Source of the DNA: Nemertoderma westbladi
Taxonomy: Eukaryota > Animalia > Xenacoelomorpha
Length of the DNA: 37,756 nt
Reading direction: 5' to 3'
NCBI GenBank assembly: GCA_032718475.1
Contig: JAUCBJ010006979.1
Span: 1 to 37,756 of the forward strand
Below the pieces are notes generated by a model. The model did no database searches. It had not been told where the DNA came from and saw nothing but the letters and a program-made list of their open reading frames with translations. The translations under genes and the position numbers were made by a program. The first letter of the stretch is position 1; each line of letters starts with the position of its first letter. Below, in pieces: positions 1 through 34,480 of this stretch.

Positions 1-1065
1 ATCGTAATGGTACGTATATGGACTTCTTAACTACCGGCCACCCTATCGATTTACACGATACGGACGATGTGGATACCGAAAGGGAAATGGTTTTATTTAA
101 ATATCATACCCAACGGAATCGGAACGATAAGCCAAGAATGGAACACGAGAATTCTATTCGAAATCAACTCGAAGGATAGAACGTGGAAGAAGGTTGATAC
201 AGACAAATAAAGGAGAACCACTGGAGAAGAGACATGGGTTAATGTCCAGGGTCCATAATGTGAATAGTTTTCCCCGGGGCACGGGTGCTCGCGGGCGGTC
301 TCCTTCGGGAGGCTGTAACTTTCTCTTCCTTCATCGTTTTCCTGTAATTATTGTGATCAGTGTCACAATTAAAAGGCAAGAATGAATGATGATGTGACGG
401 AAAACACATCCATTGTGGTATCTTATGGATACTATCGTATATCCTCCCTCCTCTCTACTCCTCTTACCCTCTTATACATTGTTACTAAAGATACGACATA
501 TTTCGTCCCACCTTCTCTTCCCAACGTGCTCGGAGCTTTGGGAGACGATCGACCAATTAGTGCCGTATCTTGGTATGGATCATACCTCCTCTTACTAAAC
601 CCCCACACTTTAAAAATCATCTGGATGCTCATATGGTGTCCGCACCTCCTGTCCATGTGCCATTCTGTTGATATTTATGATATCAACTTCCACCCTCTCG
701 TTGTTGATTAGATAATCAACCACCACTAGGGATTTCCTTTAAAGTCCACGACCGTGATTCAAGGACTGAAAAGATACGCGGCTAATCTGTGAACAACTGG
801 TACCATTGTGTGTCATAAATCTGGTTGTTCACCTCCCTCAATGATTGGAGATATAAATCTTATAATCTTATGTAGAACAACTGAGGCATTGAACTGGTTG
901 TTCCCTCATCGCACTGGGGATAAATTCAGTTGGAGATAGTCCTCGAATGTTACAATCCTCCTACTGAGATCGTATTTCTTAATATTTTAGAATGCGAAAT
1001 AGTTTTTTCCTCTGCTCTACCATCACTGTCACTGTCGGAAAACATATTGGGCATACAACAGGAAT

Positions 1066-2841
1066 ATGGAGAACATTCCCTACCCCTTCGTTGATACTCA
1101 GCTGATTGCTCCTTGGGCAGAAGGCCGAGGTTTCTTCCGCACTATGTATGCCAATACACCCAGCGACATTACTAAAGTACAACGGACATCCATCGGACAT
1201 CTTGCCTTTCAAGAATATGGATGGAATTTCAAAGTTGGAAATCCTATCAATTACCAGCAAGTATATGGAGATCATTACTCTCGTTTATATTTTGATGGAC
1301 CATTAACTGCGCCTGGTGCCGTATATAGCTTTATGAGTGTTCCACTTCGCCCTTCCTTAGCTATATACACGATCTTTGAAAACGCAGCACTTGCCGGTTG
1401 GCTAGCCGATGTGTGCAGTCGTACCATACGCGCTCACCCATTAATACTTGGAACTAAACTCGCCAAGTTAGACGAACACAATAAGTTCATACGTTTCGAA
1501 TGTTTCCGGCGCTTTCTGACTCCGTTCCGTAATGTCGATAGTCAGTTCAAGGACCGCGCGCTGACCAAACTCAGTCTGAGAGACTCAGCTGCGGAGAAAC
1601 TGAGTAGCGCTGGATTTGCCGTTTTTCAAGACGTTTGTATACAGAACTTACATTCATCTGTTATACAAAGACCCCGAATACCTACAGGTTATTCTGTCGT
1701 GGAAATACAGACAGTGGATCCACTTACTGAGACAGACGCACCCACTTCGTCTATACAGCTGGAAGATGAACCAGTATGCTTGGAATCAGAAGCGATTCAG
1801 CCTACAGCTTCCCGGAGCAGTGACAATGATTATGTCATAGAGTGGTATCAAGGTCCACAACGTCTCACAGCGTACGATTATCGACACGCCAACTACGTTT
1901 CTCGAAAACGTTGTCGATTATGCGCATCGAGAGACCACTTCACCCCTCTAGACTCGAGCGTACCTTGTTCCTATTTCCTCGAACAACCGATGATGGAAAT
2001 ATATTGTGCTTATTGCAGGCTTAATAACTCTCATATTTTTGCCGTCTGCCCACAATTTATGACTCAATGTCACTACTGTCAACTTAAAGGACATGAAAGT
2101 TACAATTGTCCCTTTAATCGCGATTTAGAGAGCGTAGACGAGATGATCACCCTGCGATACATCCGAGCTTGGGAAGCGAACGCGGATTTACATTGCGAAT
2201 CCCGACATCGCTATTACCCTGGACGAGCTTACGAGGGAGTTTACGCGTTCCATCCTTATCTATTCGCGTCGATTGAACAGAAAACACGCGTACCAAGTTA
2301 CGAGTTAATGAAGCGTGTTGGTGAGTGTATTTCCACCAAGTTTGTCAGAAAATACCTTAGAAACGTTAACCCTAATGATATAACCACATATCACCTGATC
2401 AATTTTATCCGTCAGGACCCTGAGTATGGCGACATCTTTGTGAACTCGCATCCTGAACTACAGGAAGTATCTCGGCGACCATATGAATATCGAACCCGAG
2501 AACGCGAGCTGGAGAGAACCATTAAACAGAGAAAGTTCCTCACCACTCACGGTCCACCCACCACTAGTGTCCAGACGACCCGTCAAGGACCCGTAGGAGC
2601 TGCTGTCCTGAGACGCGCTCTAAAGGCCGTTAGACCTCGCTCCACTGAGGTTGATATTAATCAACCAGGTACTTCGACCGGCGGGTATACCGATCGTAAC
2701 CCTACACCTTCTGATGCAATTGTATTGCACCCTTCGCCTAGGAGCTACAGCCCTCCTCGTAAAGTGGCTCGCCCCAAAGAGAAAAGGACTCTTGCTAGCC
2801 TCAAGAAACTGCGTAAACGCCGTCCGCGTAAGAAAGACTAA
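1066..2841 (+). CDS. Retrotransposon accessory protein, copy A: C-terminal part of a DEDDy-type 3'-5' exonuclease domain, triple CCHC zinc-knuckle module and basic NLS-like tail (5' part degenerate upstream of 1066)
   Basis: 591-aa ORF. FVDTQLIAPW..F.R...SIGHLAFQEYGWNFK..YQQVY...IYTIFE aligns by eye with CVDTQTLLAW..F.R...GIGYLAVLNGGIDFK..YNKIY...IYVVME of the 23181 ORF. Knuckles CRLC..H, CAYCRLNNSHIFAVC and CHYCQLKGHESYNC; ends KKLRKRRPRKKD. Confidence 0.75.
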   Translation: MENIPYPFVDTQLIAPWAEGRGFFRTMYANTPSDITKVQRTSIGHLAFQEYGWNFKVGNPINYQQVYGDHYSRLYFDGPLTAPGAVYSFMSVPLRPSLAIYTIFENAALAGWLADVCSRTIRAHPLILGTKLAKLDEHNKFIRFECFRRFLTPFRNVDSQFKDRALTKLSLRDSAAEKLSSAGFAVFQDVCIQNLHSSVIQRPRIPTGYSVVEIQTVDPLTETDAPTSSIQLEDEPVCLESEAIQPTASRSSDNDYVIEWYQGPQRLTAYDYRHANYVSRKRCRLCASRDHFTPLDSSVPCSYFLEQPMMEIYCAYCRLNNSHIFAVCPQFMTQCHYCQLKGHESYNCPFNRDLESVDEMITLRYIRAWEANADLHCESRHRYYPGRAYEGVYAFHPYLFASIEQKTRVPSYELMKRVGECISTKFVRKYLRNVNPNDITTYHLINFIRQDPEYGDIFVNSHPELQEVSRRPYEYRTRERELERTIKQRKFLTTHGPPTTSVQTTRQGPVGAAVLRRALKAVRPRSTEVDINQPGTSTGGYTDRNPTPSDAIVLHPSPRSYSPPRKVARPKEKRTLASLKKLRKRRPRKKD

Positions 2842-2865
2842 CTGTTTAGAGTATCTTTAGGTTTT

Positions 2866-3570
2866 AGAAACTGTGATTTTTATATTTTATAGACTGAAAT
2901 CCCATTTTCTGGGAGCGGTGTAAAAGCCTTTGCTGAATTGCCCCGTTATTTTTATTATTTTTACATTAAAATACTCTGTAGTTGATTTCATAGGTGTAAG
3001 AGACCGTATTATTGCTGTATCGGTGTTTTTTAGAGGATCTAAGAGCTATTTCCTCCGTATGTGTACTGTGGAAGGCATAGTTGATGATTCTATGGCAATT
3101 CCGTGACGCAAAAGGGGATAGATACTCTTGAACAGTAGTTACTATGACGACGGTTAACAGCTGATATTCATACGTGTCGATTTTCTTTGTTCTACGGCAT
3201 CTCTTAGTTCAGTCAGCCAATCAGAGCATTTTTATGGCTCTTGTACAGAAATTTCCTAGAAATCACGCAATGCATTATGGGCAGTGTTTACATTCTGTCC
3301 TGAGCCAGGAAAGAACGGCTTTGGAATATTTTGTGCTTTTCTGCTTTTAGCCTAACACTAGTAGGCTTAATTATAAGGACATATATCCGTTATCTCACTG
3401 ACTTAATATCTCACTGGTTATCTCACTGCATTTATCTTACTTAACATTACTGCTTTGCTGTCGGTTATTCATTATATTTGTTGATGAATTATTATATTTG
3501 GAATAACGATAAATAACCCCGAAAACCCAATATTCTTGATATACAGAAGGTAAGAGAGAGACAGGTTACA
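2866..3570 (+). mobile_element. Probable 3' end of a second BEL/Pao-like element: stem-loop (2866-2910), PPT-like GGGAGCGG (2911-2918) and candidate 3' LTR starting TGTAA at 2919
   Basis: Same layout as the complete element (accessory ORF, AT-rich spacer, stem-loop, purine tract, TG). The LTR end is uncertain (TTACA at 3570 or TTTACA near 3292) because the partner LTR is outside the window. Confidence 0.4.
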
Positions 3571-4117
3571 TATAACGATTGTGACTTATGTTAAAGTGGT
3601 TTGAAGTGAATCTAATGTTATTTGATAGACCCTACATAGTCGGTCTGTGTTCCTTTTATATGTGTGACTAAAATCAGTGAAGATCGGCAGATTAGTGTGC
3701 AGTATTGTGCAGCGTTGTGTATGAGCGAGACTGATAACGAAGCATTTCCTAAAGAATGCGCCATATATGTGAATTGTAACTAAGCCATATCGTTGTGAGT
3801 AGTTTAAGTCATAACTCTGTTTATATAGATAGAGCGCCACGTCCTAAAGGAACTGTTAATATTCCCCGAAGGTGAATAATATTGTCAGAGATTATATAAT
3901 ACTGTCAGTCGAATAATACATTAGGCTTACATAGCAATAAGATTAAGCTGTCGAAGTCAATCTCCCGGGTATATCCAGCGGGTGAATGATCGCGCACAGA
4001 TTGGTTTCAACTAGTGTAGTGAATCAAATACTTGTCAGAGGCTAAAAGCGATTTATTATCTAGAAGACATCCTAATTTGGCGGGTTAAACTGCCAAAGGT
4101 CTGAAAGCGCGAACATT

Positions 4118-4465
4118 GGTGCTAGCACCAAATTTTGAAAACCATCAAATATATCAATTGAGTGTGTCACCTTGTTTCTTGCGTTATACGGGTTTGTGAT
4201 GGTTCTGAATTCAATGGAATCAGTAAAAATTTCATACGAGTTCTCAAACTTGTATTTTTCGCCGGTGGGTGAAAATTGTTGTGCCAGCACCAAATTTTGG
4301 AAAATATGCAAATTGATAAGTAGATAGTATCACCTTGTTTCTTGCGTTATACTGGTTTATGAGGGTCCTGAATCCGATGGAATCAATAAAAACAGCACTG
4401 GACATCGCAAACTTATACTTTTTGGTGATGGGTACGAAATTAGGTGCTAGCACCAAAATTTGCCA
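4118..4465. repeat. Degenerate ~162-bp tandem repeat, about 2.2 copies
   Basis: GTGC(T/C)AGCACCAAA recurs near 4120, 4281 and 4444; CACCTTGTTTCTTGCGTTATAC occurs twice. Confidence 0.7.
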
Positions 4466-9393: not shown

Positions 9394-10361
9394 TGTTCGC
9401 GGTATTTCAACTTTTCATAACGCGAGTTGAATACTTTTTGTATTTATTTAAAATGATTATTCCGATATCACTACTGGGTGCGGGACCATGGGTTTTGGGC
9501 ACATTCTATGAACTGGGGGCGATTTATGGGCGAACATTGGGGCAACTTACAGGGTATGGGAATAATTTCATATTTATAAGGGCCAGGGGTGGGAGGCAAA
9601 GTTAAGCAGTATTCAGGTTAGCCTGAGTACTATTAGGCCCTGGCCAACTTCCTGCTGCCTGTAGAGGTGGATTTGGTAACGTGCCAGGCCTAAAGGACAA
9701 GGACTGCCCTTAGCGGCCCCTGGCCAACAGCAGTTATTACGAGCCTGAAAAGGACATCGGAACGCCGGCTGCTTGTGCCAGGGATTTGCGACGGGAAACG
9801 ACAGCCCCCTTAGCTAAGCCGTACTGGTTCTCGATGATCGAACCCTTCGGGGTTCGGGAGGGGTGGGACGGATACGCGAATGGGTCCACTGACACGACAG
9901 ACTCCGAGCCAAGCCATACTGGTTCTCAATGATCGATCCCTTCGGGGTTCGGGAGGGGTGGAACGGACATGCGACAGGGTCGACCGACACCGACACTACG
10001 GCACTAAGACCAGGACCGAGGGAAAATCTGGGGAACATTAGGTAGGCTAAAATCTGAGCGAACAGTGGGTAATTAAATAATATACTGTAGGGATTTATAT
10101 TGTCGTGTATAATTATTGTGAATATTTGGTGTATATTGATTTGGGGAAGCCCAATTAATTATCAATCAGGATTCAACAGTAGGAAGTTACATTAAAGAGT
10201 ATATCCAACCAATGCAATTTTTCCTCAACCGCAATCCTGCATTCAAGATATCATTCCTTCTCCACAATCAATATCCGGTGACTGGCCGGGACTCTGTGGT
10301 CTGTAAAGTCACGTCTCCAGCATCGGCGTTTTCCCCCCTGGTGTTTGGGATAACGGCAACA
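9394..10361 (+). repeat. 5' LTR of BEL element (968 bp, 2 hairpin-repeat units)
   Basis: Near-identical to 25966-27457 apart from two internal deletions of 428 and 95 bp. Confidence 0.97.
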
Positions 10362-10434
10362 AAATTGAAAATTAAACGCGGCCAACTTCAACTGGTGGAA
10401 GTTGGGAATTCTACAATACTCTTCAAACAAAAGA

Positions 10435-10607
10435 AATTTCGCACTGTTGTGTCCCTAGGCAAGACACCTTAGACATTAGTGCCTACGCCAACCCAGCGGT
10501 ATAATGGGAACCTGGCTTTGCTGGGGTAATGATAATAAAAGCGCTTTGAGTATGCTGGGCGTAGAAAAGCGCTATATAAATAACCAATATTATTATTATT
10601 ATTATTA
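10435..10607 (+). mobile_element. 5'-truncated SINE (Nin/Deu-type central domain, L2-like 3' tail) inserted in the BEL leader
   Basis: GTTGTGTCCCTAGGCAAGACAC and ACCCAGCGGTATAATGGGAACC core motifs; AAAGCGCTTTGAG...GAAAAGCGCTATATAAAT stem-loop tail; (TAT)n end. Confidence 0.75.
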
Positions 10608-10751
10608 AACTCTCTCTGTGCTTACCCAGCACCCACTACGAGGAAACTCTGGTATTTGAGTTAAGACAAAGTCGTGGTTTAATTAATCAACAAACTCGAT
10701 CTAACCAACTCGTAGTCGGCAGATCACATATTGGAGAGTTGTTAACAGGGA

Positions 10752-10943
10752 ATGGAAGTATCGATCACACCCATTGATATCATCCAAGTTGAGCCAGGAA
10801 TCTGGCACGTTGAAGTGGAAGTACAAGGAACGAACGTCGGACGATTCAGGATTACCGTTCGGGTGGTCCAGGCTGAGTACGATACCTACGAGGAACTATT
10901 CTACGACATCGCATATCTAGCTATCAACGAGGCATTGGAATGA
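10752..10943 (+). CDS. Small 63-aa upstream ORF overlapping the gag start (ATGA)
   Basis: ATG-initiated; alternating hydrophobic beta-strand pattern followed by an acidic helix; stop overlaps the gag ATG by 4 nt. Confidence 0.4.
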   Translation: MEVSITPIDIIQVEPGIWHVEVEVQGTNVGRFRITVRVVQAEYDTYEELFYDIAYLAINEALE

Positions 10944-13900
10944 TGGCGAACAATGTATCCGATACCGATGAGATGGACCACCACACAGATTCGGAAGCCG
11001 ACGAGGTACCGAACGTCAAGAACATGACCCGTCGACTAGGGGCTCTCAAGGGCGGAGTAACTCGAGCGTATCAACGGATAGAGAAACAACTCAAGGAAAT
11101 TAAAACCCCCCTCAACGAGATACAAACTCAGCTTCAGAGTATCCGAAACATCCTGCAGCGATATGAAAGAATGATACAGGCGTACCAAGAGCTCGTTCCC
11201 TCCACTGATCAGGAAAACTACCCCAGGTTAGAAGAACATGTTGTACATCTAGATGGGTTCCGCAAACAACACCGGAGGACCCTTAGCCTTGTGAGAGGCT
11301 ACGAAGAACAGTACTACAAGAGAGCCGAAAGAACAGATGCAGAATCAGTGCGAACCTCCAGCACCAGGACAGCAATACATCGAAGGAAATCGGGGTCCTC
11401 GAGAAACCAGCACTCCAGCGCTAGGAGCGCGGTGTCCGGTTCAGCACACAGCTCTCAAGGGGGTCAACCACTCCGAGACCAGCTATGAGAACGGAAGGCA
11501 TTAGCCCTCAAAGCTCGGATGGAAGATGAGTATATTCAACTGCAAGCCGAGCAAGACGTATTAGCCGCCAAAACACAAAAACGAGAGGCCGAACAAGCGG
11601 CCGAACGGCAGGCCGAACAACGCGAACAGGAGGCTGAACAACATAGACGAGAGGCTGAACGACGCGAACAGGAGGCTGAACAACGTGGACGAGAGGCCGA
11701 ACGAGAGATCGAACAACGTAAATGGGAAGCAGAAATGCGTAAACAACACGCCGAGGCCCAAGCGATTCTCATCCACAAAAAGAATGCGGATATTGCAAAA
11801 CTCGCGGAATACGAAGCCGCACTTATAGAACGAGATATTCAACTCTACGAGGACTGGGAAAGGGATATAGATCAGGAATATGAACCAATCCCGGTACCGG
11901 AATTAGAGAAGTCATTTATACCGACAGCGGCGAAACTTCCGAAACCCGAGAATACGCCTACCAAACAGTCCACGTTATCGGCACAAGCACCAGTGTTCCA
12001 TCCCCCACCGGTTACACTTAAAAATGAGGAACCGTATTTCCCGTCCAACCCCACGGCAACGAGTGTACCCAAGTACGAGCCTGAAAGGGACTCGGAACGG
12101 GACGCCACTCCTCGATCCAACAACCTGTTTACATCCACACCACAAACCCATAGTCACGTCACCATTAAAACTCCACCTATCATTGATCCATCGAGTATGG
12201 GAGAGAGTGCCAATAACTATAACCCTCCGAGTCACTCCAGTTCAGACGACGTCGGCCTTATCCGGGCATTGGAAAACCGCCTTGCCATGCCCAAGATGGA
12301 GATCCGCACCTTTGAAGGAGATCCCGTCGATTACCTCAGATTCAAGAAACGGTTCTTTGCGCAGATTGGTTCAACAGATATAGCATAGTAGAAACTAGTA
12401 TATTTATCACAATACCTGGGTGACAAACCACGCCGAATTATTGCATGTTTTGAGGGAGGTTCTCATGAGGCATACTATGACGCATGGAAAACTCTAGATA
12501 AAAGATATGGAAATACCGGAACTATAATTAATAAAACTCTAGAGAGACTGATACAGGACGCGGGATCACTAGGGGACCCACAGAACATCCAGGAATTCAC
12601 CGACTCTATGAAGGATGCCTACTATACTCTGAAACCCTTAAATAAGGAGGACCAGGTGAACAACATTCTAAACCTCCGACAGATCGCCCGGAAGTTCCCC
12701 GGATGGCTACATAGTAAGTGGGCCTATAAATGCGTAGATCTCCAGCGCAGACATCCAGATCGAGATCCAAGCTTCCTTGAAATGTCGGCATTCCTGGACG
12801 ATATCTCCGAAGCCATGAATGACTCAATGTTTTCAAAACAGAGTCTTGCCAAGTTGGACGGAATAGAGAGCAACTCCAGGAGTAAGATACCCCCTCCGAA
12901 ACCGAGATTCCGCCCCCCACCGGTGAGTACGATGGCCATCACCATGGCCGAGGATTCCGACGACGAAGACTATGAGGAACCGACATCCGCCGAGGAATGG
13001 GCATGTTATCTCGCGAATTGGGCACCCGAGAGGGAAGGCATCACAAACTCCCTGCTCTGTCTCTATTGTGGAGAGAAAAATAAAGTTGAATTCTGCAGGA
13101 AGTTCCAGTTTGCCGAACTCGTCCCACGCTTCGAAGCGATTATGAAACACCGAGGATGCTTCCGGTGTCTTGGTACAGGTCACTACGTTCGGGAGTGTGA
13201 CCAAAGGTCGTGTTGTGCGGTTTGTAACGACCTACGTCATCACACGCTCCTCCACATCCCCGCGAACTTTGACTTCACTACCCTCCCCTTTCGGATTGAA
13301 ACAAAGCGAAGAGGAGAAACGAACCTCGTTTCTAAAGGATCCCGGACAACCCAACGGAGAGAAACCAACCCGTTTAAAACCTCCACTAACGCATCACAAG
13401 TGACAAATATCTCAGCCACGATCAACCTGATAAATCGCCATTACATGGTCTTCGCCAAAGTAATCCCAGTAAGAATTCAGGGAGTCGGCAAATCCTTGAC
13501 GACGCTCGCGTTCCTTGATAACGGGTCGGACGGAACCATCATCGACCGGGATTTCCTCGAGCAACTCGGCCTAGACTATGAACCTTACAAACGGCCCATA
13601 CAAACTATCACCGACAACAGAGAGGTAGACTCCAGGGAGGTGCAACTCCAGATGGAAGGAGTAATGAAGGGCTACGAAACGGTTAAGTTGACCATCAAGA
13701 ACGCCTTGGTACACATAGACCTCCGAGTGCGGTTCCGACAATCGGCCGAGTACGCCCCCCTCATACAGCTAGATCGAGACGACGTAGACCTAAGGTGCCC
13801 GCCATTGGATGTAAACCGCATCACTCTACTGATCGGACTTGATACACCGGAACTACACATCCCCACCGGAGATATCGCCCGATCTATAAAACAGGATGAC

Positions 13901-16553
13901 GGATTTTATGCTGAACGAACAATAATGGGATGGACACTCTGCGGCATTAAGGAGGAAACTACTGACACCTATACCTACCTTCCCAAATGTCAGATTAAAG
14001 AGAATGCAACCTCCGTGGGTTATTGCTCAGCTACGGACCTTGACGAGGATTTGTTTCTGGAGACCGAGAAAACCTAACAAGAGATGACGAAATATTTTAA
14101 TCTAGAGACCCAGGAATTCGCTGAAAAGGACGAAAACCCGTCCGAAGAGGATCAATATTGTATGAACGTTCTCGACCAGGCCACGTTCAAAGACGGACAC
14201 TGGTGTTCACCTATGTTATGGAAGGACCCAAACAAACCGATGGCAAACAACGCCAGCATGGCACTTAGGCGACTTAAGGGGATTCTACGCCGGCTGAATG
14301 ACCAACCCGAGATAAAGGAGAAATATAATACCGTTATCCAAGGATATCTCGACGATGGATTAGCAGAAATGGTACCACGGTATGAACTGCAAGGTGGTAA
14401 AAGAACATATTATCTCCCAACCCACTATGTGGTAGAAGCCCGGAAGGGTGGGAAAATCCGAGTGGTAAATGATGCCGCCGCTATGTACCAGGGTGAATCC
14501 CTAAACAGTCAGCTTTACACGGGACCCAACATATATAGTACACTCATCGGCGTATTGATCAGGTTCAGGGAAAACCGGGTAGCATTCACCTGCGACATCA
14601 AGGCCATGTTTCATCAAGTTCGTACGCTACCAAGAGACTCAGACTGTCTACGTATCCTATGGACGGATAAAACACTAACTCAACAGGAGATTAGTCAACT
14701 TACGATAAAGGACGTAGACATAATGCGTATGGTCGTCAGGATCTTCGGCGCTAAGGACTCGCCGGTAGCATGCAGTGACATGCTGAAGAGGACGGCAACT
14801 ATGTGCGAAAACGAGTTCCCTCCAACCGTCATAGAAACCATCCGACGATGTTTTTACGTGGACGACGGATGCGCTGGCGCAGATAATGTGGACGAGGCAT
14901 ATCAGCTAGCAATGGGGATGGTAGAATGTCTAAAGAAAGGAGGTTTTCCGCTCGTGAAGTTCAGATCCCACGACAAAACACTTATGGAAAAGTTTCCGGA
15001 GGACATCCGACTGGAAAATAACAAAATGTATTCGGAGGATGTGGAACACCGTGTACTCGGGATTGAATGGGACATAGAATCAGACGAATTCATTTTCAAA
15101 TATAAACCCCTACCCAAGCCTATGACAAAAAGGGGATGTTTGTCGATAAAAAGCGCCATCTTCGACCCACTAAATTTCATATCTCCAGTAACCTTGGCCG
15201 GAATGAACCTGATTAAGGAAATGTGGATAGAAGGACTGGGATGGGACGAAGAACTCCCCCCACACCTCAGCGTCAAATGGAGAAAATGGACGGAGCAGCT
15301 CGAACACCTACATCTTATGCGGATACCTCGACCGTTTTTCCTCGATAAACTACCCACCGATATCTTCCAGCTCCATACCTTCTCGGATGCTTCGAATACC
15401 GGAATTGGCGTAGTCACCTTCTTACGAAGACTAAGCAACGACGGAAATGGTGATACGAGCTTCTTATTTTCTAAAGCTAAGACAGTATCCGGGGAATTCG
15501 TAGCAACGATTCCACGACTCGAGCTTCAGGCTGCAGTTTGGGCAGTAAGACAGAATCGCATGGTCATGCGGAACCTACGAATCCCCATCGAATCTTAACA
15601 CTTCTGGGTCGATTCGAGTATAGTTCTCTATTATCTCCACTCTCCATCACAGCGTCACACTACGTTTGTTGCGAACCGAGCCACGGAGATTAAACAGTGT
15701 ACCGGCCGGGAACAGTGGCACCACGTGAACGGGAAAGAAAATCCAGCGGACTTATCAAGCCGAGGCGCCACACCAAAACAACTCGGTAAAAGCAAACTCT
15801 AGCTTACAGGCCCGGAATTCCTACAGCAGCCACAATTAACATGGAGTACCCGATTCGACCCCGAACTCGATAGCGGAAAATACTCCGAGGACAATAAAGA
15901 GATCCGCAAAATCCATAGAAGCAATGCAGTGGAAATTTATAGTTGTCTGACTGAGCCTGCAAAGGACTCGGGCAGGCACTATAACGTCGCGACGATCACT
16001 CAACCAGCGGCGTCTTTACATCTGTTGATCGAGCGAACTTCATCAATGAGACGGCTCATCCACCACATTATAACCCTTCGCAACTTCCTACGGTGGAAAG
16101 ACAACAAACCGATAGTTCAACAAGAACTCATTATCGCGGAGAAGTGTATCGTTGGATATGTCCAGAGAGAAAGTTTCCCCGATGAGTGGGAACAACTTAG
16201 TGCGGGCAAAACCTTGAAACCGGACAGCCCAGTCTACCAGCTGAGACCAATGATGGGAGAGGACGGACTGATCCGACTAAATACCCGGATGGCAAACGCC
16301 CCGGTCGAATATGAGGTTAAATACCCAGCGCTTCTGCCCGGAACGTCAACACTAGCCAAGCTATTAATTCAACAATGTCACGAGGAAAACCATCATGCAG
16401 GACAGAACTGGATTATAGCTAATATAAGACAAAGATATTGGATCACCAACATCCAGCCACTGATCCGGAAAGTGTTGAAACGTTGCTTTACCTGCAGAAG
16501 ATATCTAGCGCCACCACTCACCCAAAAGATGGCCGACTTACCAGCCACCCGCC
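10940..16553 (+). pseudogene. BEL gag-pol polyprotein, 5' part (Gag, protease, RT, RNase H, integrase zinc finger)
   Basis: ORF pieces at 10940, 11519, 12608, 14084 and 15929 share one frame, separated by point stops at 11486, 12386, 14075, 15596 and 15800. Motifs: CFRCLGTGHYVREC / CAVCNDLRHHTLLH, FLDNGS, YYLPTHYV, KIRVVNDA, DIKAMFHQV, FYVDD, FSDAS, TIPRLELQAA, HEENHH..CFTC. Confidence 0.96.
11580..11735 (+). repeat. Coding ~21-bp repeats (EAEQ/REAE coiled coil) in BEL Gag
   Basis: Repeated GAGGC(C/T)GAAC(A/G)AC units. Confidence 0.8.
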
Positions 16554-16725
16554 TATAAGATATAAATGTGTCAGTTATTCAAAATGTATTAATCTTATAA
16601 TCATCTAGCACTGTCAGACTACAAACCGCACAATCCTGCAATGACCAGAATACCAACCACCACCACAGTTACACTCAGCAGTCCGCAGCCTATAATAATC
16701 CATCCATCTATCTCACCCATATCTT

Positions 16726-16781
16726 ATATTCCCCCCAGTTTGTAAAATAAACTATCTGTGTTCTCATATTCCCCCCAGTTT
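16726..16781 (-). promoter_or_regulatory. Polypurine tract of the Gypsy element, present twice
   Basis: AAACTGGGGGGAATAT on the minus strand at 16726-16741 (at the LTR junction) and again at 16766-16781. Confidence 0.85.
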
Positions 16782-16842
16782 ATAGTAAACGTATATTTAA
16801 CACCATGTTCAAGTAAATAGCTCCAATCGATATTTAGCTAAT

Positions 16843-19800
16843 CTAAATCCCATATCTCTCCGGTGGTTTCGAATTTCTCCCCGCTCGAGTTACATATCCT
16901 AACTCCGGAACGACCTCAATATCATTTGCATTACTTCTATCATCTATATTGTCGTTGTCATCATCCTCATTGTAATTCACTGTAGTGTCATCATCATTTA
17001 CAGTTTCATCATCTGAACTGTCCGTGTCCATCTCATCTTCAATGTCAATATTCCTGTCAATGTTCCCATTGTATGTCACGTCCAGTTGGTTACCGACGTG
17101 AATCTTTCTAACATCCTGTAGATGATGTCTGATACCCTTTACTACAACCGACCATTCATCTGGAATTTCCTCTACTTCCATTGGTCCTTTCCACCTTTTG
17201 TAGCAACGCCACTTCTGTTCAGGCTTGACGTAAATCAAATCTCCAATTTTATATGGGTTGTCTATTACCTCTCTGTCTTCTAGCAGCTTTGTTATGCCAG
17301 GCAACTTTTCCACTCGTTCACCCATGACTTTCTGAATTGGTGTCTGGTTATCTTTTACTGATGTTCTGTTGTACCAGAATGTAACTTGAACTGGATCTTT
17401 CTTAGATCTTGACGCCCACGCTTTTATAGTTCGATGCATTCTTTCGACGGGATTTCCCCTAGGTCTGTATGCGCACGAAGGCTTCAGTTTCACCTCCCAT
17501 TTATTTAAGAAACTTTTAAACTCATTGCTGCGGAACGCAGGACCATTATCGGGTATAATTTCTTCAGGGGGTCCCCACTCTATAAATATTCGCTGTAGAA
17601 TTTTAACGGCCTGTGCGCTTGTTTTATTAGGCACTTGATTCCAAATAGTAAAATTAGAGTTACAATCCATAACTGTTAGATAACTGTGAGTCCCATACTC
17701 AGAAAAATCAGTAGATAATCTTTGCCAACTCCTATCAGTTTTACAGCTGCCTGGTTTCAGTTTCACTGGTACAGGGTCGATGCTCTTACATTCTTCACAC
17801 TTTCTACAAACCTCTTTAATTGCTTCTTTACAATGGTCTGTTACACTGCCTAGATTCCTGTCTGCTTTACATAGATTCTTTAGTCTATCAGATCCCACAT
17901 GTACCACTTCGTGTAATTCCTTCACTCTTTCCTCAATGTCCGCATAATCTGCGGTTCCATTGGTCTCTGTAACAGTTACTGCAGCTACTTCGACTTCTGG
18001 TTTTTTTAGCCATTTTTTTGGTATACGAGTTAAACAGTCAGCTCGATTCTGCTCTGATGGAACTAGATGCAAAGTTGTTTTTAACTGAAATTCGTCCACA
18101 GTTTTCTTGAGAAGTTCCAATCTTCGTCTTATTAACATTTTAGACATTCCCTTAGTGCGAATGCGGTGTTCATCTTTCAGCATTGCATTTACCCATCCAT
18201 ATACCGGTGCCGAGTCAGTATATAATTGTATTTCTGTTAATTCCCACTGTATTGCCATATTTACCCCTTCAATTAATGCGCTAAGCTCGGCTGAGTTTAT
18301 GTGTTCTGGGTGATCGTTTTTACGTAACCATGATCCATCCTCAGCTGTCTGTCCCCCGATTCTCACCATCGCCCCAATGGCCAAGTTACTAGCGTCAGCC
18401 CAAACTTCGCCACGTTTCGTATCACTTATAGGCCACGAACCACCCACTGGATCTGCTCGTTGCACTCGGTTAACCACCTCAACTAATTTATCTCTAGTTC
18501 CCTTGTCTATTACTGAATCCATTGGAACATTTGCTGCCTGGCGTTGCAGCCAACTCAATGACACTCGCAACCATCCCTCGATCAAATAGTTTCCTCGTAA
18601 TTGTCCTACCACTGATAGCAGTTTTCTATGAGTTAATGGGTTCTCGATCTTTTCTGGGTCTGGAATGTCACTATCTCGTTTCCACTTCCCCCCTTCCACA
18701 GCGACTCCGAGGACTCTGGCCCCACCTTTAATTTCTATTGCTTCCTTGGTTTCAAGTCCGAACTTTTTAAGATGTTGCCTTACGTCATCTGCTGTTACAC
18801 CTGTTTGTAAATCTGCATATATGTCATCCCTAAAACTGTCTGTCGATTCCTTAATTCGATCATTCTGTCCCAGTACTTTTTCTACAATAGTATCCAATAT
18901 TTTGGGTGCCGGGCCCAACCCAAACCCAAGTCTAGTCATGCAGTACCTTTTTCCTTTGTAACTGACTGTTTGGTATGCCTGTAGTGCCGGTGCTATTCTT
19001 ATCTGCATGTACGCCCACTTTAAGTCGATTATTGCTGTATTCTCGCCCATTCTTATCCAGTGCCTTAACTTTTCGTTACTTGCTGCTGCCTCCACCCCTG
19101 GTTGCTTTATTAAGTATTCGTTTAATTCTCTAAAATCCATAATGGGGCGCACTCGATCTTTGCGGGGTTCATTTTTATACATCAGAGGTATCAGTGCCAT
19201 ATAATCACCCTCAAATTCTTGCAACCATCCCTTCTCTATCCACTCTCCTACTCCTTTCTCATACTTGCTACGTAGTTCTGTTGGAATATGATATTCCCGT
19301 ACTGTATTGTTTAGTCTACCTGGTGGAGAGCCAGCTTCGAATTTGTACTCCACTTGCCAATTAGTACCATCGAAAACTGCACAAAAATCGTCTTTATCTA
19401 TTCTTAGTATTGGTTCTGTAGTCGTTTTGGCTACTGCTGATACTGACCATTGTCCCCCTGACCCGACACTTACTTCCATTTTACCGTCGTCTGTTCCTAT
19501 AAATGAAATGCCGTTGCTTTTCTTTATTAAGTCCCACCCATATATCATATTTAATTCTCCTACTATATGATCAACAACCAAGAATTCCCAAACAAACTCC
19601 GGCATCCTGTCAATCTGTAACACAGTACTAACCTTTCCTACCAACTGCGTAGCTGTAGACCCGTCTAACATAGTTATGTTTGATTTATTACCTGGTTCCT
19701 CAAATGTTCCATTAATTCTCGCTGCGAACTTCCGCGATAATATACTCCTGCTACACCCAGAATCGACCAATGCTTCCACAAATTTCCCTCCACAATTCAC

Positions 19801-19881
19801 ATTTTTCGTCGGAAGATCACCGACTTGTCCTCCGGGGAGACGACCGCTGGCACACACGACGCCTCCCCCTATTCGTTTCCC
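16843..19881 (-). CDS. pol: Gypsy Pol (protease, RT, RNase H, integrase), expressed by -1 frameshift
   Basis: Uninterrupted ~1010 codons. Motifs: LVDSG; MDFRELN, IDLKWAYMQI, RLGFGL, FRDD; WADAS, INSAEL, YTDS, NRADCLTR; HEVVH..CEEC, STDF, PDNG, VERMHRTIK. Confidence 0.93.
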   Translation of the reverse strand, partial: GKRIGGGVVCASGRLPGGQVGDLPTKNVNCGGKFVEALVDSGCSRSILSRKFAARINGTFEEPGNKSNITMLDGSTATQLVGKVSTVLQIDRMPEFVWEFLVVDHIVGELNMIYGWDLIKKSNGISFIGTDDGKMEVSVGSGGQWSVSAVAKTTTEPILRIDKDDFCAVFDGTNWQVEYKFEAGSPPGRLNNTVREYHIPTELRSKYEKGVGEWIEKGWLQEFEGDYMALIPLMYKNEPRKDRVRPIMDFRELNEYLIKQPGVEAAASNEKLRHWIRMGENTAIIDLKWAYMQIRIAPALQAYQTVSYKGKRYCMTRLGFGLGPAPKILDTIVEKVLGQNDRIKESTDSFRDDIYADLQTGVTADDVRQHLKKFGLETKEAIEIKGGARVLGVAVEGGKWKRDSDIPDPEKIENPLTHRKLLSVVGQLRGNYLIEGWLRVSLSWLQRQAANVPMDSVIDKGTRDKLVEVVNRVQRADPVGGSWPISDTKRGEVWADASNLAIGAMVRIGGQTAEDGSWLRKNDHPEHINSAELSALIEGVNMAIQWELTEIQLYTDSAPVYGWVNAMLKDEHRIRTKGMSKMLIRRRLELLKKTVDEFQLKTTLHLVPSEQNRADCLTRIPKKWLKKPEVEVAAVTVTETNGTADYADIEERVKELHEVVHVGSDRLKNLCKADRNLGSVTDHCKEAIKEVCRKCEECKSIDPVPVKLKPGSCKTDRSWQRLSTDFSEYGTHSYLTVMDCNSNFTIWNQVPNKTSAQAVKILQRIFIEWGPPEEIIPDNGPAFRSNEFKSFLNKWEVKLKPSCAYRPRGNPVERMHRTIKAWASRSKKDPVQVTFWYNRTSVKDNQTPIQKVMGERVEKLPGITKLLEDREVIDNPYKIGDLIYVKPEQKWRCYKRWKGPMEVEEIPDEWSVVVKGIRHHLQDVRKIHVGNQLDVTYNGNIDRNIDIEDEMDTDSSDDETVNDDDTTVNYNEDDDNDNIDDRSNANDIEVVPELGYVTRAGRNSKPPERYGI
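19834..19881 (-). promoter_or_regulatory. -1 programmed ribosomal frameshift signal
   Basis: G GGA AAC heptamer (19881-19875) in the gag frame, 6-nt spacer, then GGGGAGGCG/CGTCTCCCC stem. Confidence 0.88.
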
Positions 19882-20744
19882 GGCTTCGTCGTCGGGATGA
19901 ATGCCACGCACCCTCTCGCTAAATGGTCAGCACCCCCGCATCTAAAGCAACCCGTGTTCGGTTTAACAGTCCCTGTCGCAGTTCCGCTCTGGTTTCTATT
20001 CCCTAAATTTCCTACGTCGCTGTAGCACTCACGCGCAAAGTGGCCGGGTTTACCGCAACGGAAACATCCTGACCCTCTACCCTGATCTCCTCCCCGTGAC
20101 TCCATACCACTGTCCCGTCGCCAGTTCCCTTTATAATCTCGATTCGAATCCGCAGTTGGACGATAATATCCCTTGTTTCCCTGCCTATCCCCGTATCTCG
20201 CCGCCGCCCCTACCAGCTGAGCTTCGCTTCGCTCCGACTCAGACAATAACCGCCTTGCCTGTGCTAACAGTTTACTCAAATCCGTCTCACCTGCTAACGC
20301 CTTCGTCTCGTTTTGTATTTCATCCGGTAGTCCACTCACGAATTGAACCGCCAATATCTGCTGCGCGCACCTAGATTGAACATCGCCCCCAGTGACCAAC
20401 CCTAATAACCTCTTCAGTTCTGCCAGAAACGTATCTGGCGATTCCTTTTCCTTCAGTCGACGCTGTTTGTATTGCTCGAACGCCGTATATTCGTTGATTG
20501 CGAATGCTGTTATCAATGATCGTTTCAGAATATCATAGTCCGCCTTTTCTGCATCCGATAGCTGACTAATTACGTTGTACGCTGCGCCCTCCATTGACAG
20601 TCGCAAATAGGTTGCCCGCGATTCCTCTTTCAATCCGGCCTCCGCTTTCATCACGTCGTAAGTGTCATCGAACCTCATTAGCCAAGCAGATGGATCACCC
20701 GTACCATTGTACTTTTTAACATAATCCGAAAGTTTCGGAGCCAT
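19869..20744 (-). CDS. gag: Gypsy Gag with two CCHC knuckles
   Basis: ATG at 20744; capsid-like region (RRLKEKESPDTFLAELKRL..QFVSGLP); CFRCGKPGHFAREC and CFRCGGADHLARGC. Confidence 0.93.
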   Translation of the reverse strand: MAPKLSDYVKKYNGTGDPSAWLMRFDDTYDVMKAEAGLKEESRATYLRLSMEGAAYNVISQLSDAEKADYDILKRSLITAFAINEYTAFEQYKQRRLKEKESPDTFLAELKRLLGLVTGGDVQSRCAQQILAVQFVSGLPDEIQNETKALAGETDLSKLLAQARRLLSESERSEAQLVGAAARYGDRQGNKGYYRPTADSNRDYKGNWRRDSGMESRGGDQGRGSGCFRCGKPGHFARECYSDVGNLGNRNQSGTATGTVKPNTGCFRCGGADHLARGCVAFIPTTKPGNE

Positions 20745-20755
20745 CACTGCTGCAA

Positions 20756-20767
20756 GGCCGGTTAGCT
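20756..20767 (-). promoter_or_regulatory. Putative primer-binding site complementary to nt 1-12 of tRNA-Ile(AAU)
   Basis: AGCTAACCGGCC directly follows the 5' LTR; metazoan tRNA-Ile(AAU) begins GGCCGGTTAGCTCAG (from memory). Confidence 0.65.
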
Positions 20768-20947
20768 TATAAGATATAAATGTGTCAGTTATTCAAAATG
20801 TATTAATCTTATAATCATCTAGCACTGTCAGACTACAAACCGCACAATCCTGCAATGACCAGAATACCAACCACCACCACAGTTACACTCAGCAGTCCGC
20901 AGCCTATAATAATCCATCCATCTATCTCACCCATATCTTATACCGCC

Positions 20948-21918
20948 TACAAGCAGATTCCCCACCATCCTACGTCACCGGAGTGGACTGCTTCGGACCG
21001 TTTACGGTCATCAAACGGCGATCCAACATCAAATGCTGGGGAGCCATCTTCACCTGCCTTAGGTCTAGGGCAATCTACCTAGACATTGTGGTAAACCTGA
21101 CGCAACACGCATTCATCAACGCTCTGCGTTGTTTCGTGGCGAACAACGGGACATGTCGCCACATGTATTCCGATAATGGTACAAACTTTGTGGGAGGAGA
21201 ACGAGAACTTAGAGAGGCGATCGAGGGATGGTTTACCGACAACACCGCATCCCAAGTCTGGAAGGAACACCAGATACAGTGGCATTTCCAGACCCCCTTA
21301 GCACCCCATACGAGCGGGGTATGGGAGAAACTGATCGACTTTAGGAGACACCCGGGTAACCCATGACACCCTCCGCACAACATTCTGCGAGATCATGGCT
21401 ACCCTGAACAACCGGCCCATTGTCCCTATCCGCGACGACCCCACAGACCTGGAGCCCCTCACTCCTAACCACCTACTGGGGAAACCCAAAACCCATGTTC
21501 TCCCAGAGACCATGTTTCCGGATCCCAGCGATATCGCGAGACATACAAATTGGAAGAAGGCCCAAGCCTGGCAGCGCATTGGTGGAGAATCTGGGCCCAG
21601 GAATATCTCATAACCCTCCGGACCAGGAGGAAGTGGAACAACACCTACAGGAATGTTGCAGTTGGCGACATGGTATTAGTAAAAGAAGATCTCAAAGACC
21701 GCGTCCACTGGCCTGTGGCGCGAGTCGTGACCATACACCCGAGCAAAGACGGACTTGCGAGGACTGTGACGATACGTACGGCAAAGGGCCACTACCAACG
21801 CCCTATCCAGAAGCTGTGCCTTCTTGAAGGCAATGACAGTGGTGATTCTACGAGAGGTGATAAGTTCCCTACTACGGATCCTGCTGCGGACATTGGTGAC
21901 AATGATAAACCCGTTTAA
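20948..21918 (+). pseudogene. BEL integrase core and C-terminal (DUF5641-like) domain
   Basis: GVDCFGP, FTCLRSRAIYL, YSDNGTNFVG, GVWEKLI, LNNRPI, LTPNHLL, WWRIWAQEYL..L..R.KW, WPVARV, RPIQKLCLL; deletion/frameshifts near 21335 and 21565. Confidence 0.95.
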
Positions 21919-22187
21919 ACCCTTCTCATCCTGTTGACAAACTTTAAACTGTGATTTACTGACAATGAAAATGGACCCCCCTTAAACCAACTGTAACCAC
22001 GCAATGGTATTTGTGTTTCCTCGTGTGTTATGTGGAGTCCAGCGTCACCCTGCAGATGTTTCGACTGACGCAGGGTCGTTTATGTATTGTTTACCCTGAT
22101 TTTGGTCATCGGGACCAATGATATTGGATTATTGGAAATGGTAAAGATTTGAAGTGGAATTCATTGTATCCATTGTAGTATGTTATG

Positions 22188-22612
22188 TTGTCCGTTGCGT
22201 GCGCAGTTCGGGGCGTAGGCGGTGTAACGAGTCCAGCTGTAGATCCCGGATTGCCGCGCAACACCCCCTCTATCCCGTTATTCTGGTGGGTCCATGGTGC
22301 ATCCACATGACTTCGACGACAGGGGGTTTTATGTTCTCAGTCGCGTTATTCTGGTGGGACTGTTGCGTGGATTTTGGGGCGTAGGCGGTGTAACGAGTCC
22401 AGCTGTAGATCCCAGAATGTTGCGTAACCCCATCCCACATGACTTCGTTGGCTGAGCTTTATGTTGTTGGGAGTATTATTCTGGTGGGTCCCTGGTGCAT
22501 TCCACGTGACTTCACTCCCAGGGTCTTCATTGTCCGTTACGTGTGCAGTTTGGGGCGTAGGCGGTGTAACGAGTCCAGCTGTAGATCCCAGATTGCCGCG
22601 TAACACCCCTTT
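22188..22612 (+). repeat. Modular tandem repeat in the BEL pol-accessory intergenic region
   Basis: Identical 38-mer GGGGCGTAGGCGGTGTAACGAGTCCAGCTGTAGATCCC at 22210, 22376 and 22552, interleaved with TTATTCTGGTGGG x3 and CCAC(A/G)TGACTTC x3. Confidence 0.9.
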
Positions 22613-23180
22613 CACAACAAAAATTTACCAAAGAAGATGATTGAATGTAGTTGGAAATGATGAAAAGAAACAGACAACTCTACTATAAACCGAATGATGA
22701 CGCGTATGATGATGAAAATGTAATGATGCGCACCCTGGTGCTGCGCTTATAACAAATGATGATAGCCGGGGGGCTATAACCCCAATGATGACGTGGAAAT
22801 AAATGAAATGTGAAATAAATGTGAAATAAATGAATAAATGGTGGAACTAAATGATGAAATATGTGTTGAAATAATGAAATGTGAAGTGAAATAATAATGA
22901 GAAATGGAAAAAGACAAAAAAAAAATGTATAAAATGTATTAATAAAGAATTGGAAAAAGAAGAGGACATAAAAAGTCATAAAACTGGTTGGATATTAATG
23001 TATAGCTATAGTAACTGTAAATGCTGAATGTATTAGCAATAAGATGGTAGATGCCTATATAGCAATGTTATTTAATAAACTGAATTAAAATTAAACTGAA
23101 TTATTCTGCAATCACTATAGTTTCAGACTTTCTGGACTTATAATTAATTGATCTAATTTGCAACGGACATAATCGTAAAT

Positions 23181-25787: not shown

Positions 25788-25965
25788 TGGACCGGGATAT
25801 TCCAGGAACATTTATTGAACATTTATTTTTATACACATATATATCTATAAACTCTAGGCCAAATTAATTAAGACTATGCAATATTAAATTTGGGTTTTTT
25901 ATATTGGGAATGACCTACGCAAACTCAATCTACCGATAGACCTCACGAAGGTCATTGGGGGGGAC

Positions 25966-27457
25966 TGTTCGCGGTATTTCAACTTTTCATAACGCGAGTT
26001 GAATATTTTTTGTATTTATTTAAAATGATTATTCCGATATCACTACTGGGTGCGGGACCATGGGTTTTGGGCACATTCTATGAACTGGGGGCGATTTATG
26101 GGCGAACATTGGGGCAACTTACAGGGTATGGGAATAATTTCATATTTATAAGGGCCAGGGGTGGGAGGCAAAGTTAAGCAGTATTCAGGTTAGCCTGAGT
26201 ACTATTAGGCCCTGGCCAACTTCCTGCTGCCTGTAGAGGTGGATTTGGTAACGCGCCAGGCCTAAAGGACAAGGACTGCCCTTAGCGGCCCCTGGCCAAC
26301 AGCAGTTATTACGAGCCTGAAAAGGACATCGGAACGCCGGCTGCTTGCGCCAGGGATTCGCGACGGGAAACGACAGCCCCCTTAGCTAAGCCGTACTGGT
26401 TCTCGATGACCGATCCCTTCGGGGTTCGCGAGGGGTGGGACGGACATGCGAAAGGGTGGCCGACTAACAGAGGACGGGTTTGACGAGGACTGCCCTTAGC
26501 GGTCTCTGGTCAACAGCAGTTATTACGAGCCTGAAAAGGACATCGGAACGCCGGCTGCTTGTACCAGGGATTTGCGATGGGAACCGACGACAGACCCCTT
26601 AGCTAAGCCGTACTGGTTCTCGATGATCGATCCCTTCGGGGTTCGTGAGGGGTGGGACGGACATGCGACGGGGTCGAAAGACAAAGGACTGGACGCTACT
26701 GGCCTACCGACTGTTCGGAGCAGTTTCTCGGCTGCCGAAGCGACTACGAGCCTGAATAAGGACTCGGAAAGCCTAGGTGGTTGGGTCTCTGCGATGAACC
26801 GACGGACCCCTAGCCAAGCCGTACTGGTTCTCGATGATCGAACCCTTCGGGGTTCGGGAGGGGTGGGACGGATACGCGAACGGGTCCACCGACATGACAG
26901 ACTCCTAGCCAAGCCGTACTGGTTCTCGATGATCGATCCCTTCGGGGATCGGGAGGGGTGGGACGGATAAGCGACAGAGTCTACCGACTGGACCGACCCT
27001 TAGCCAAGCCGTGCTGGTTCTCGATGATCGATCCCTTCGGGGTTCGGGAGGGGTGGAACGGACACGCGACAGGGTCGACCGACACCGACACTACGGCACT
27101 AAGACCAGGACCAAGGGAAAATCTGGGGAACATTAGGTAGGCTAAAATCTGAGCGAACAGTGGGTAATTAAATAATATACTGTAGGGATTTATATTGTCG
27201 TGTATAATTATTGTGAATATTTGGTGTATATTGATTTGGGGAAGCCCAATTAATTATCAATCAGGGATTCAACTGTAGGAAGTTACATTAAAGAGTATAT
27301 CCAACCAATGCAATTTTTCCTCAACCGCAATCCTGCATTCAAGATATCATTCCTTCTCCACAATCAATATCCGGTGACTGGCCGGGACTCTGTGGTCTGT
27401 AAAGTCACGTCTCCAGCATCGGCGTTTTCCCCCCTGGTGTTTGGGATAACGGCAACA
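25966..27457 (+). repeat. 3' LTR of BEL element (1492 bp, 5 hairpin-repeat units)
   Basis: Follows the PPT; ~68-bp core starts at 26383, 26600, 26811, 26906 and 27001. Confidence 0.97.
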
Positions 27458-34472: not shown

Positions 34473-34480
34473 GGAGACTA

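What the first reader, a model, noticed from the sequence alone, without database searches (positions are those of the whole stretch)
1066..2841. Second, highly diverged homologue of the exo-knuckle gene
Seen: no recognisable DNA similarity to 23181-25787, yet protein motifs are collinear: VDTQ....W....F.R, IG.LA...G..FK.....Y...Y, IY...E, YC.YC....H...VCP.....C..C...GH, (W/F)E..A..H....R, G.(Y/F), basic C-terminus. It is followed by a stem-loop, purine tract and TG, like the complete element. Inference: the gene is an ancient, selected component of a whole BEL clade rather than a one-off host-gene capture.
Basis: partly seen in the sequence, partly recalled or inferred. Interest (0 to 1): 0.8.

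Follow-up and report, generated by a model that had tools for sequence, protein, structure and literature searches.

The report
Second transposon-borne nuclease-like knuckle gene
A long, intact reading frame in this animal DNA is a distant relative of the extra gene carried by a nearby BEL retrotransposon and lies in its own multi-copy repeat family, so it is likely an old accessory RNA-binding gene of mobile elements, although its nuclease-like ancestry and its BEL membership remain unproven.

Summary
The homology holds. ORF 1066-2841 (591 aa) matches the BEL element's extra gene (23181-25787) in two collinear blocks: 0 of 1000 shuffles reach either score, and 8 of 1000 do when Cys/His are held fixed. 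There is no DNA similarity. A third copy of the knuckle module lies at 34231-34461. Public contigs show that the ORF belongs to a diverged multi-copy repeat whose listed copies keep the frame (0 of 9 contigs gapped inside it, 15 of 23 outside), so it is not a single-copy host gene. RNase D-like ancestry has only marginal support (hhalign 1-2%, expected register). Best reading: an old accessory RNA-binding gene of LTR elements, probably nuclease-dead here. 'Whole BEL clade' is untested; rotifer precedent favours a gene pool shared between element types. New variant of a known kind.

The parts
3..179 (+). Coding stub (58 aa, open from the window edge) of the same repeat family; identity unknown (N-terminal part of the accessory gene or end of an upstream gene)
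   Evidence: 7 of 7 listed differences in 1-160 fall on third codon positions, 6 synonymous (p 4.6e-4); highest summed depth; a contig joins 160 to 1813; no match to the element gene or to pol
161..1056 (.). Lower-depth, indel-rich, apparently non-coding segment standing upstream of the ORF in a subfamily of copies
   Evidence: Summed depth about 10-50 times lower than both sides, no codon phase in 33 differences, gapped contigs; bridged at both ends by contigs of other copies (table 8); no Pfam hit in six frames
1066..2841 (+). The ORF: 591 aa, intact from ATG to stop; probably 5'-shortened relative to most copies of its family
   Evidence: loose ends before 1061/1066 in three runs; 9 of 9 listed contigs over it ungapped
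1090..1443 (+). Block 1, residues 9-126: homologous to the second half of the element gene's nuclease-like region (VDTQ ... Y-x3-E)
   Evidence: RNase D-like register only marginal
1912..2256 (+). Zinc module: an upstream Cys cluster (C283, C286, C301), knuckles CX2CX5HX4C (314-328) and CX2CX4HX4C (335-348), then E..A ... R ... G motif
   Evidence: weak matches to Air2 and nucleocapsid knuckles (E 0.085 and above)
2758..2838 (+). Lys/Arg-rich tail, candidate nuclear localisation signal (inferred)
   Evidence: Sequence; the element gene also ends in a basic run
2901..2918 (+). Small hairpin and G-rich tract, candidate polypurine tract
   Evidence: weak on its own
2919..4115 (+). Candidate 3' LTR, TGT...ACA, about 1.2 kb; right end tentative
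   Evidence: Multi-copy, indel-rich; other copies continue into a different shared sequence behind 4117 in two runs; no second copy in the window; the 163-bp array starts at 4110, so the end may be a truncation
23181..25787 (+). Comparison gene: extra gene of the complete BEL element, broken by an in-frame TGA (23898-23900) and at least two frame changes between about 24430 and 24960
9394..27457 (+). Complete BEL/Pao element: LTRs 9394-10361 and 25966-27457 (96-98% alike), 5-bp TGTAG duplication, gag-pol with DUF1759, Peptidase_A17, DUF5641, nested Gypsy on the minus strand
34231..34461 (+). Third copy of the knuckle module, in a broken fragment
   Evidence: tblastn E 5.5e-4 and 1e-4; score 74, 0 of 1000 Cys/His-fixed shuffles

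Best explanation
ORF 1066-2841 is a conserved gene of a multi-copy repeat family and a distant homologue of the extra gene of the neighbouring BEL element; it likely is the third (accessory) gene of a second LTR retrotransposon family, and its product likely binds the element's own RNA in the nucleus through a half RNase D-like domain, two CCHC knuckles and a basic tail. Shown: homology in two collinear blocks, multi-copy status, frame-preserving divergence, a third related module in the window, and that this copy differs from other copies upstream of about 1060. Inferred: LTR nature of 2919-4115; RNase D/Rrp6-like fold; loss of catalysis (this ORF has no counterpart of the N-terminal half where the first catalytic motifs lie, and the element gene shows no clear D-x-E motif there); role in protecting, trimming or exporting element RNA against host RNA surveillance. 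Unknown: whether the carrier is BEL or another LTR type.
For: Homology. Repeat family: 30,846, 8,175, 418 and 83 contigs of four runs laid on 1-5200, most under 99% alike. Selection: 0 of 9 listed contigs gapped in the ORF (146 substitutions) against 15 of 23 outside (Fisher p 0.001); the 12 listed indels all lie outside the ORF. No intron is needed: one open frame. Position: ends 78 bases before a G-rich tract and TGT, as the element gene ends 179 bases before its 3' LTR. A contig joining 160 to 1813 shows internally deleted derivatives, typical of mobile elements. Nuclease lead: against a 42-sequence RNase D/PolA exonuclease alignment both proteins align in the expected register (VDTQ on the family's FDTQ-type strand; the element's KIGSDIKAD on the second acidic motif), 11 of 300, 7 of 300, 2 of 60 and 1 of 60 shuffles as good. 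Precedent: DEDDy ORF3 in rotifer LTR elements (PMC5408684).
Against: No pol, 5' LTR or target-site duplication in view. Nuclease assignment has hhalign probability 0.9% and 2.0%, no Pfam, NCBIfam, PHROG or PDB sequence hit, and both folds were too poor to use (pLDDT 31.6 and 40.0). No homologue among 1.84 billion representatives or. The contig tables show only 32 of 39,729 pieces and 12 of 64 indels, picked by the tool for length and support. Summed depth is not copy number. The LTR end at 4115 overlaps another repeat. Function is wholly untested.
Confidence: 0.6

Rival explanations
1. One reading: the carrier is a second BEL/Pao family and the gene has been inherited vertically through a whole BEL clade.
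For: The only homologue with a known context is BEL-borne; same orientation and position before a TGT-starting repeat of about 1.2 kb, within the BEL range of 0.2-1.2 kb (PMC8742986); the host BEL RT is only 29-40% identical to its 120 best listed relatives, so an unsampled clade is plausible.
Against: No BEL pol next to this copy; candidate LTR has no similarity to the BEL LTR; the one outside knuckle hit lies beside Gypsy-type fragments; rotifer DEDDy ORFs were gained independently and exchanged between element types (PMC5408684).
Confidence: 0.35
2. The carrier is a non-autonomous LTR-like or other mobile element (Gypsy-related, Penelope-like, DIRS-like) that has only this gene or took it from a pool shared by unrelated retroelements.
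For: Deleted derivative joining 160 to 1813 and uneven depth along the family; L001 context; published sharing between LTR and Penelope-like elements; unchecked scan notes on exonuclease-knuckle third genes in Gypsy elements.
Against: Frame conservation over 1.8 kb suggests the gene serves an autonomous or helper element; L001 match is only 17-25 residues and degenerate.
Confidence: 0.3
3. The N-terminal block is not nuclease-derived; the family is an orphan zinc-knuckle nucleic-acid chaperone, a second nucleocapsid-like protein.
For: All library, structure and atlas searches for the N-terminal block were blank; the atlas saw only knuckle families at 0.86 or less.
Against: Two separate segments fall in the expected register of the RNase D-like alignment; Y-x3-E sits at the start of a predicted helix in both proteins.
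Confidence: 0.25
4. A single-copy or domesticated host gene that the BEL element once captured.
For: Intact frame while the element's copy is broken.
Against: Thousands of diverged contigs, no introns, deleted derivatives, variable 5' context; no conserved orthologue in any protein library.
Confidence: 0.04
5. The similarity is chance plus generic CCHC knuckles.
For: Each block alone is modest (E 3e-4, 7e-6); post-knuckle motifs not significant against the element gene.
Against: Two independent collinear blocks; Cys/His-fixed shuffles 8 of 1000 and 0 of 1000; other knuckle proteins score 27-33 against 74.
Confidence: 0.04

Closest known systems
DEDDy (RNase D-like) ORF3 of bdelloid rotifer LTR retrotransposons Juno and Vesta and of Athena/Terminon elements (PMC5408684: first fifth of the text and passages; PMC6431247: passages)
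   Same: Extra non-env gene between pol and 3' LTR; proposed RNase D-like domain; present in unrelated element families.
   Different: Rotifer ORFs keep the catalytic residues and are described with a Cys-His-Cys motif in two families, with no mention of CCHC knuckles ('cchc' 0 occurrences); carriers are not BEL; here the nuclease signal is marginal, catalytic motifs look lost or absent, and a double knuckle plus basic tail follows.
Belpaoviridae / BEL-Pao elements with a third gene (PMC8742986: whole text; PMC3118150: passages)
   Same: The complete neighbouring element has BEL domains, paired LTRs and a third gene in the env position.
   Different: Described third genes are env-like; neither text mentions an exonuclease. 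This ORF has no shown link to a BEL pol.
Rrp6/RNase D family and catalytically dead DEDD derivatives (Maelstrom, EXD1; as named in PMC5408684)
   Same: Candidate shared fold and RNA-binding role without catalysis.
   Different: Homology not established; Rrp6 itself was not among the reference sequences tested, only bacterial RNase D and PolA exonuclease domains.
Air2 and retroviral nucleocapsid double zinc knuckles
   Same: Two adjacent CCHC-type knuckles.
   Different: Only weak matches (E 0.085 and above); longer first knuckle, an extra upstream Cys cluster and a family-specific motif after the knuckles.

Membership tests
BEL/Pao (Belpaoviridae) element, for the carrier of ORF 1066-2841 | [quoted passage not shown] | tested here: inconclusive
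   None in six frames of 1-1065, but the family runs off the left edge and no genome is held
BEL/Pao (Belpaoviridae) element, for the carrier of ORF 1066-2841 | Paired LTRs of 0.2-1.2 kb with TG...CA ends | tested here: inconclusive
   One candidate 2919-4115; no second copy in the window; shared different continuation behind 4117 in other copies
BEL/Pao (Belpaoviridae) element, for the carrier of ORF 1066-2841 | Polypurine tract of about 10 nt before the 3' LTR | tested here: inconclusive
   G-rich 2911-2918 with one pyrimidine; such a tract precedes 11 of 668 TGT sites
BEL/Pao (Belpaoviridae) element, for the carrier of ORF 1066-2841 | tRNA-Arg/Gly primer-binding site after the 5' LTR; target-site duplication | not testable with these tools
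   5' end outside the window; contigs cannot be fetched
BEL/Pao element, for the complete element 9394-27457 | BEL domains, paired LTRs, target-site duplication, purine tract | tested here: met
   DUF1759, Peptidase_A17 E 9e-36, DUF5641 E 2e-29; LTRs 96-98% alike; TGTAG duplication
DEDDy (RNase D/Rrp6/WRN) exonuclease | Significant sequence or profile homology to the DEDDy domain | tested here: inconclusive
   No Pfam hit; hhalign 0.9-2.0%, shuffle p 0.02-0.04, expected register
DEDDy (RNase D/Rrp6/WRN) exonuclease | All three acidic motifs (ExoI D-x-E, ExoII D, ExoIII Y-x3-D; motif pattern recalled) in one domain | tested here: not met
   ORF 1066 starts after the region aligned to ExoII and has Y-x3-E at the candidate ExoIII; a full domain may exist in other copies, left open
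DEDDy (RNase D/Rrp6/WRN) exonuclease | RNase H-like fold | tested here: inconclusive
   Models at pLDDT 31.6 and 40.0, no fold match at E 0.001
CCHC zinc knuckle proteins | CX2CX4HX4C spacing | tested here: met
   Residues 335-348 canonical, 314-328 with one extra residue; below Pfam cut-off

The most novel reading that the evidence does not exclude
An unsampled animal lineage hosts a radiation of BEL retrotransposons that replaced env with an ancient dead-nuclease plus triple zinc-cluster protein, kept under selection in several families for so long that DNA similarity is gone, and used as a dedicated counter-measure that shields element RNA from nuclear surveillance or piRNA processing; the family has no detectable relative in 1.8 billion protein representatives.
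Probability: 0.2. Interest if true: 0.7.

Novelty: new variant of a known kind. Interest (0 to 1): 0.42.

Why it matters
Non-env third genes of LTR retrotransposons are candidates for anti-silencing or RNA-export factors, and almost none has a known function. Three diverged relatives in one 38-kb window, one inside a BEL element and one in a separate high-copy family under selection, show that the gene is old and useful to its carriers. If the nuclease ancestry and BEL context hold, it extends the rotifer DEDDy ORF3 arrangement to Belpaoviridae, which eight paper searches did not find described, and supplies a naturally intact frame for biochemistry. Repbase, GyDB and subscription journals were not searchable, so absence from print is not established.

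Tried and rejected
Homologue searches with no result: ORF against 5.8 billion clusters (0 of 3800 candidates), against 1.84 billion representatives (0), knuckle alignment against longer proteins (0 of 186), metagenome contigs (0 of 45 stretches), viral contigs (0 of 4, 3, 40, 40, 43 stretches). Atlas: only knuckle-type clusters at 0.86 or less, with low recognition; none for residues 1-195. Idea that 1-250 is the tail of a BEL integrase: no significant match to the window's integrase tail or to 120 BEL proteins, while the control tail hit P0046 at 8e-12; rejected for now. Idea that 3-176 is the counterpart of the element gene's N-terminus: not significant (p 0.86-0.97). Idea of a LINE or RT remnant on the minus strand of 161-1056: best p 0.03 among 42 tests; rejected. 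Hammerhead or other RNA families in the LTRs: 0 Rfam matches; no tRNA genes. Structure prediction and fold search uninformative. In one search three of seven short reference domains were read from the wrong strand; that group's result was discarded and the test redone. Expression: no RNA holder listed; run X6 is only guessed to be RNA. Earlier notes by place and by sequence: none.

Full report
What is there. The window is animal DNA rich in transposons. It holds one complete BEL/Pao element (LTRs 9394-10361 and 25966-27457, 96-98% alike, TGTAG duplication; BEL domains; a nested Gypsy) whose region between pol and the 3' LTR carries an extra gene at 23181-25787, broken by one in-frame stop and at least two frame changes. 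The finding is a separate open frame, 1003-2841, with ATG at 1066, 591 residues. No whole genome is held.

Is the homology real? Yes. There is no DNA similarity. Residues 9-126 align to the piece 23901-24608 at 25% identity; the score of 62 was reached by 0 of 1000 shuffles, and the best unrelated score among 630 translated window segments and 120 BEL proteins was 41. Residues 312-382 align to the piece 24765-25787, score 74, 0 of 1000 plain shuffles. Because Cys-rich motifs inflate scores I fixed Cys and His and shuffled the rest: 8 of 1000 reached 74; the window's other zinc proteins scored 33, 29 and 27. The blocks are collinear (912 and 1278 bases apart in the two genes) and both proteins end in basic runs. 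Against this, the other two pieces of the element gene do not align at all, and the motifs after the knuckles are not significant alone against the element gene (p 0.72). A third copy of the knuckle module at 34231-34461 matches both.

Is it a host gene? No. Four public runs (three studies of the same species label, one of another) laid 30,846, 8,175, 418 and 83 contigs on 1-5200, most less than 99% alike. Among the 32 pieces listed (of 39,729), all 9 inside the ORF are ungapped despite 146 substitutions, up to 12.5% in one piece, while 15 of 23 outside are gapped (p 0.001); the 12 listed indels (of 64) all lie at 2876 or beyond. This is a multi-copy family whose frame is preserved. The listed rows are the tool's choice, the best run may be the window's own source, and summed depth is not copy number.

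The left side changes the picture. Summed depth is very high over 1-132, 10-50 times lower over 161-1056 and high again from 1057. In three runs, contigs that match from 1061 or 1066 onward carry a different, shared sequence before it, so ATG 1066 is probably not where the family's gene begins; a contig of depth 1579 bridging 981-1090 shows that the window's arrangement is itself a subfamily. In 1-160, 7 of 7 listed differences fall on third positions of the frame open from base 3, six synonymous, and one contig joins 160 to 1813. So 3-176 is a coding stub of the same family and internally deleted derivatives exist. The stub matches neither the element gene's N-terminus nor a BEL integrase tail. 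No pol is visible in 1-1065. What other copies encode upstream of 1061 is left open.

The right side. A G-rich tract (2911-2918) precedes TGT at 2919, 78 bases after the stop; such tracts precede 11 of 668 TGT sites. The hairpin is borderline here and not significant in the complete element. A candidate end ACA lies at 4115, and other copies continue behind 4117 into a shared sequence unlike the window in two runs, as expected if those are 5' LTR junctions, but also if the window copy is cut off by the 163-bp repeat that begins at 4110. The candidate LTR does not resemble the BEL LTR. An LTR is likely, not shown.

Is it an exonuclease? Pfam, NCBIfam, PHROGs, PDB sequence search and the atlas gave nothing for this block; two structure models were unusable. 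Against an alignment of 42 bacterial RNase D and PolA exonuclease domains, the ORF and the element gene scored better than all but 11 and 7 of 300 shuffles, and hhalign placed VDTQ on the family's DTQ strand and the element's preceding segment on the second acidic motif, at probabilities of 0.9% and 2.0% (2 and 1 of 60 shuffles). The register is right and the statistics are marginal. ORF 1066 begins after the second motif, so this copy cannot by itself hold a whole active site; both proteins have Y-x3-E where the family has Y-x3-D (pattern recalled). Eukaryotic Rrp6 or WRN references could not be tested.

Relatives elsewhere. None in the protein collections or viral contigs. One of 116 metagenome stretches passed: L001, a degenerate knuckle segment 65% identical over 17 residues to the third copy, about 2 kb from Gypsy-type fragments and with no BEL domain found in the parts scanned. 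The BEL RT's best relatives are 29-40% identical, so the lineage is poorly sampled and blanks say little.

How it likely works. A gene placed after pol, with a candidate RNase D-like half domain, tandem CCHC knuckles and a basic tail, reads as a nuclear RNA-binding accessory factor. The most likely role is to bind the element's transcript and help it escape surveillance or leave the nucleus; copies with a full domain might trim RNA 3' ends. All of this is inference from anatomy and from the rotifer precedent, where the authors also had no functional data (PMC5408684).

Comparison with what is known. Rotifer Juno, Vesta and Athena elements carry DEDDy ORF3s, gained more than once and shared between element classes. 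The ICTV profile and the BEL survey describe only env-like third genes. Eight searches found no paper on a BEL-borne exonuclease-knuckle gene; I read no supplements, and the BEL survey's sequence files could hold unannotated examples. Unchecked scan notes report Rrp6-like exonuclease-knuckle third genes in Gypsy elements of other genomes and other accessory genes in BEL elements; they are leads, and they point to a shared pool rather than a BEL-only trait.

Verdict. Observation partly confirmed; interpretation partly supported. A real, old, selected mobile-element gene family with three members in one window; BEL membership of this copy and nuclease ancestry unproven. New variant of a known kind, interest 0.42.

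Noticed in passing
window 34231-34461 (+), within 33450-34480: Third diverged copy of the knuckle module in a broken acidic, low-complexity fragment bounded by other repeats; its first knuckle has D in place of H.
   Followed up: partly
window 10362-10720: No TGG-type primer-binding site directly follows the 5' LTR of the complete BEL element; a SINE-like stretch with a (TTA)n tail appears to be inserted there (resemblance recalled, not tested).
   Followed up: no
window 9696-9990 and 26268-27084: The BEL LTRs contain arrays of 95-bp G+C-rich repeats with a hairpin closed by TTCG; copy number differs between the two LTRs (968 versus 1492 bases). No Rfam match.
   Followed up: partly
window 22188-22609 and 22690-23100: Between pol and the extra gene: three ~80-bp direct repeats and an A-rich stretch with TGATGA/TGAAAT repeats; possible splice or regulatory region for the 3' gene.
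   Followed up: no
window 16843-20792 (-): A compact Gypsy element with an open 1027-aa pol (DUF7047) nested in the BEL integrase, with ~178-bp LTRs 99% alike (16551-16728, 20765-20942).
   Followed up: partly
window 4110-4870: High-copy repeat with 163-bp subunits carrying the palindrome TGGTGCTAGCACCA; abuts the candidate LTR.
   Followed up: partly
window 5058-8105: Large foldback element with many nested inverted arms (87-100% complementary).
   Followed up: no
window 29489-30145 (-): Exon with tandem C2H2 zinc fingers, probably a host gene; used only as a negative control.
   Followed up: no
window 35300-36175 (-): Fragment of a non-LTR retrotransposon reverse transcriptase.
   Followed up: no
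L001:9115-9300: Degenerate knuckle segment like the third copy, followed in another frame by residues resembling the post-knuckle motif; Gypsy-type fragments on both strands upstream.
   Followed up: partly
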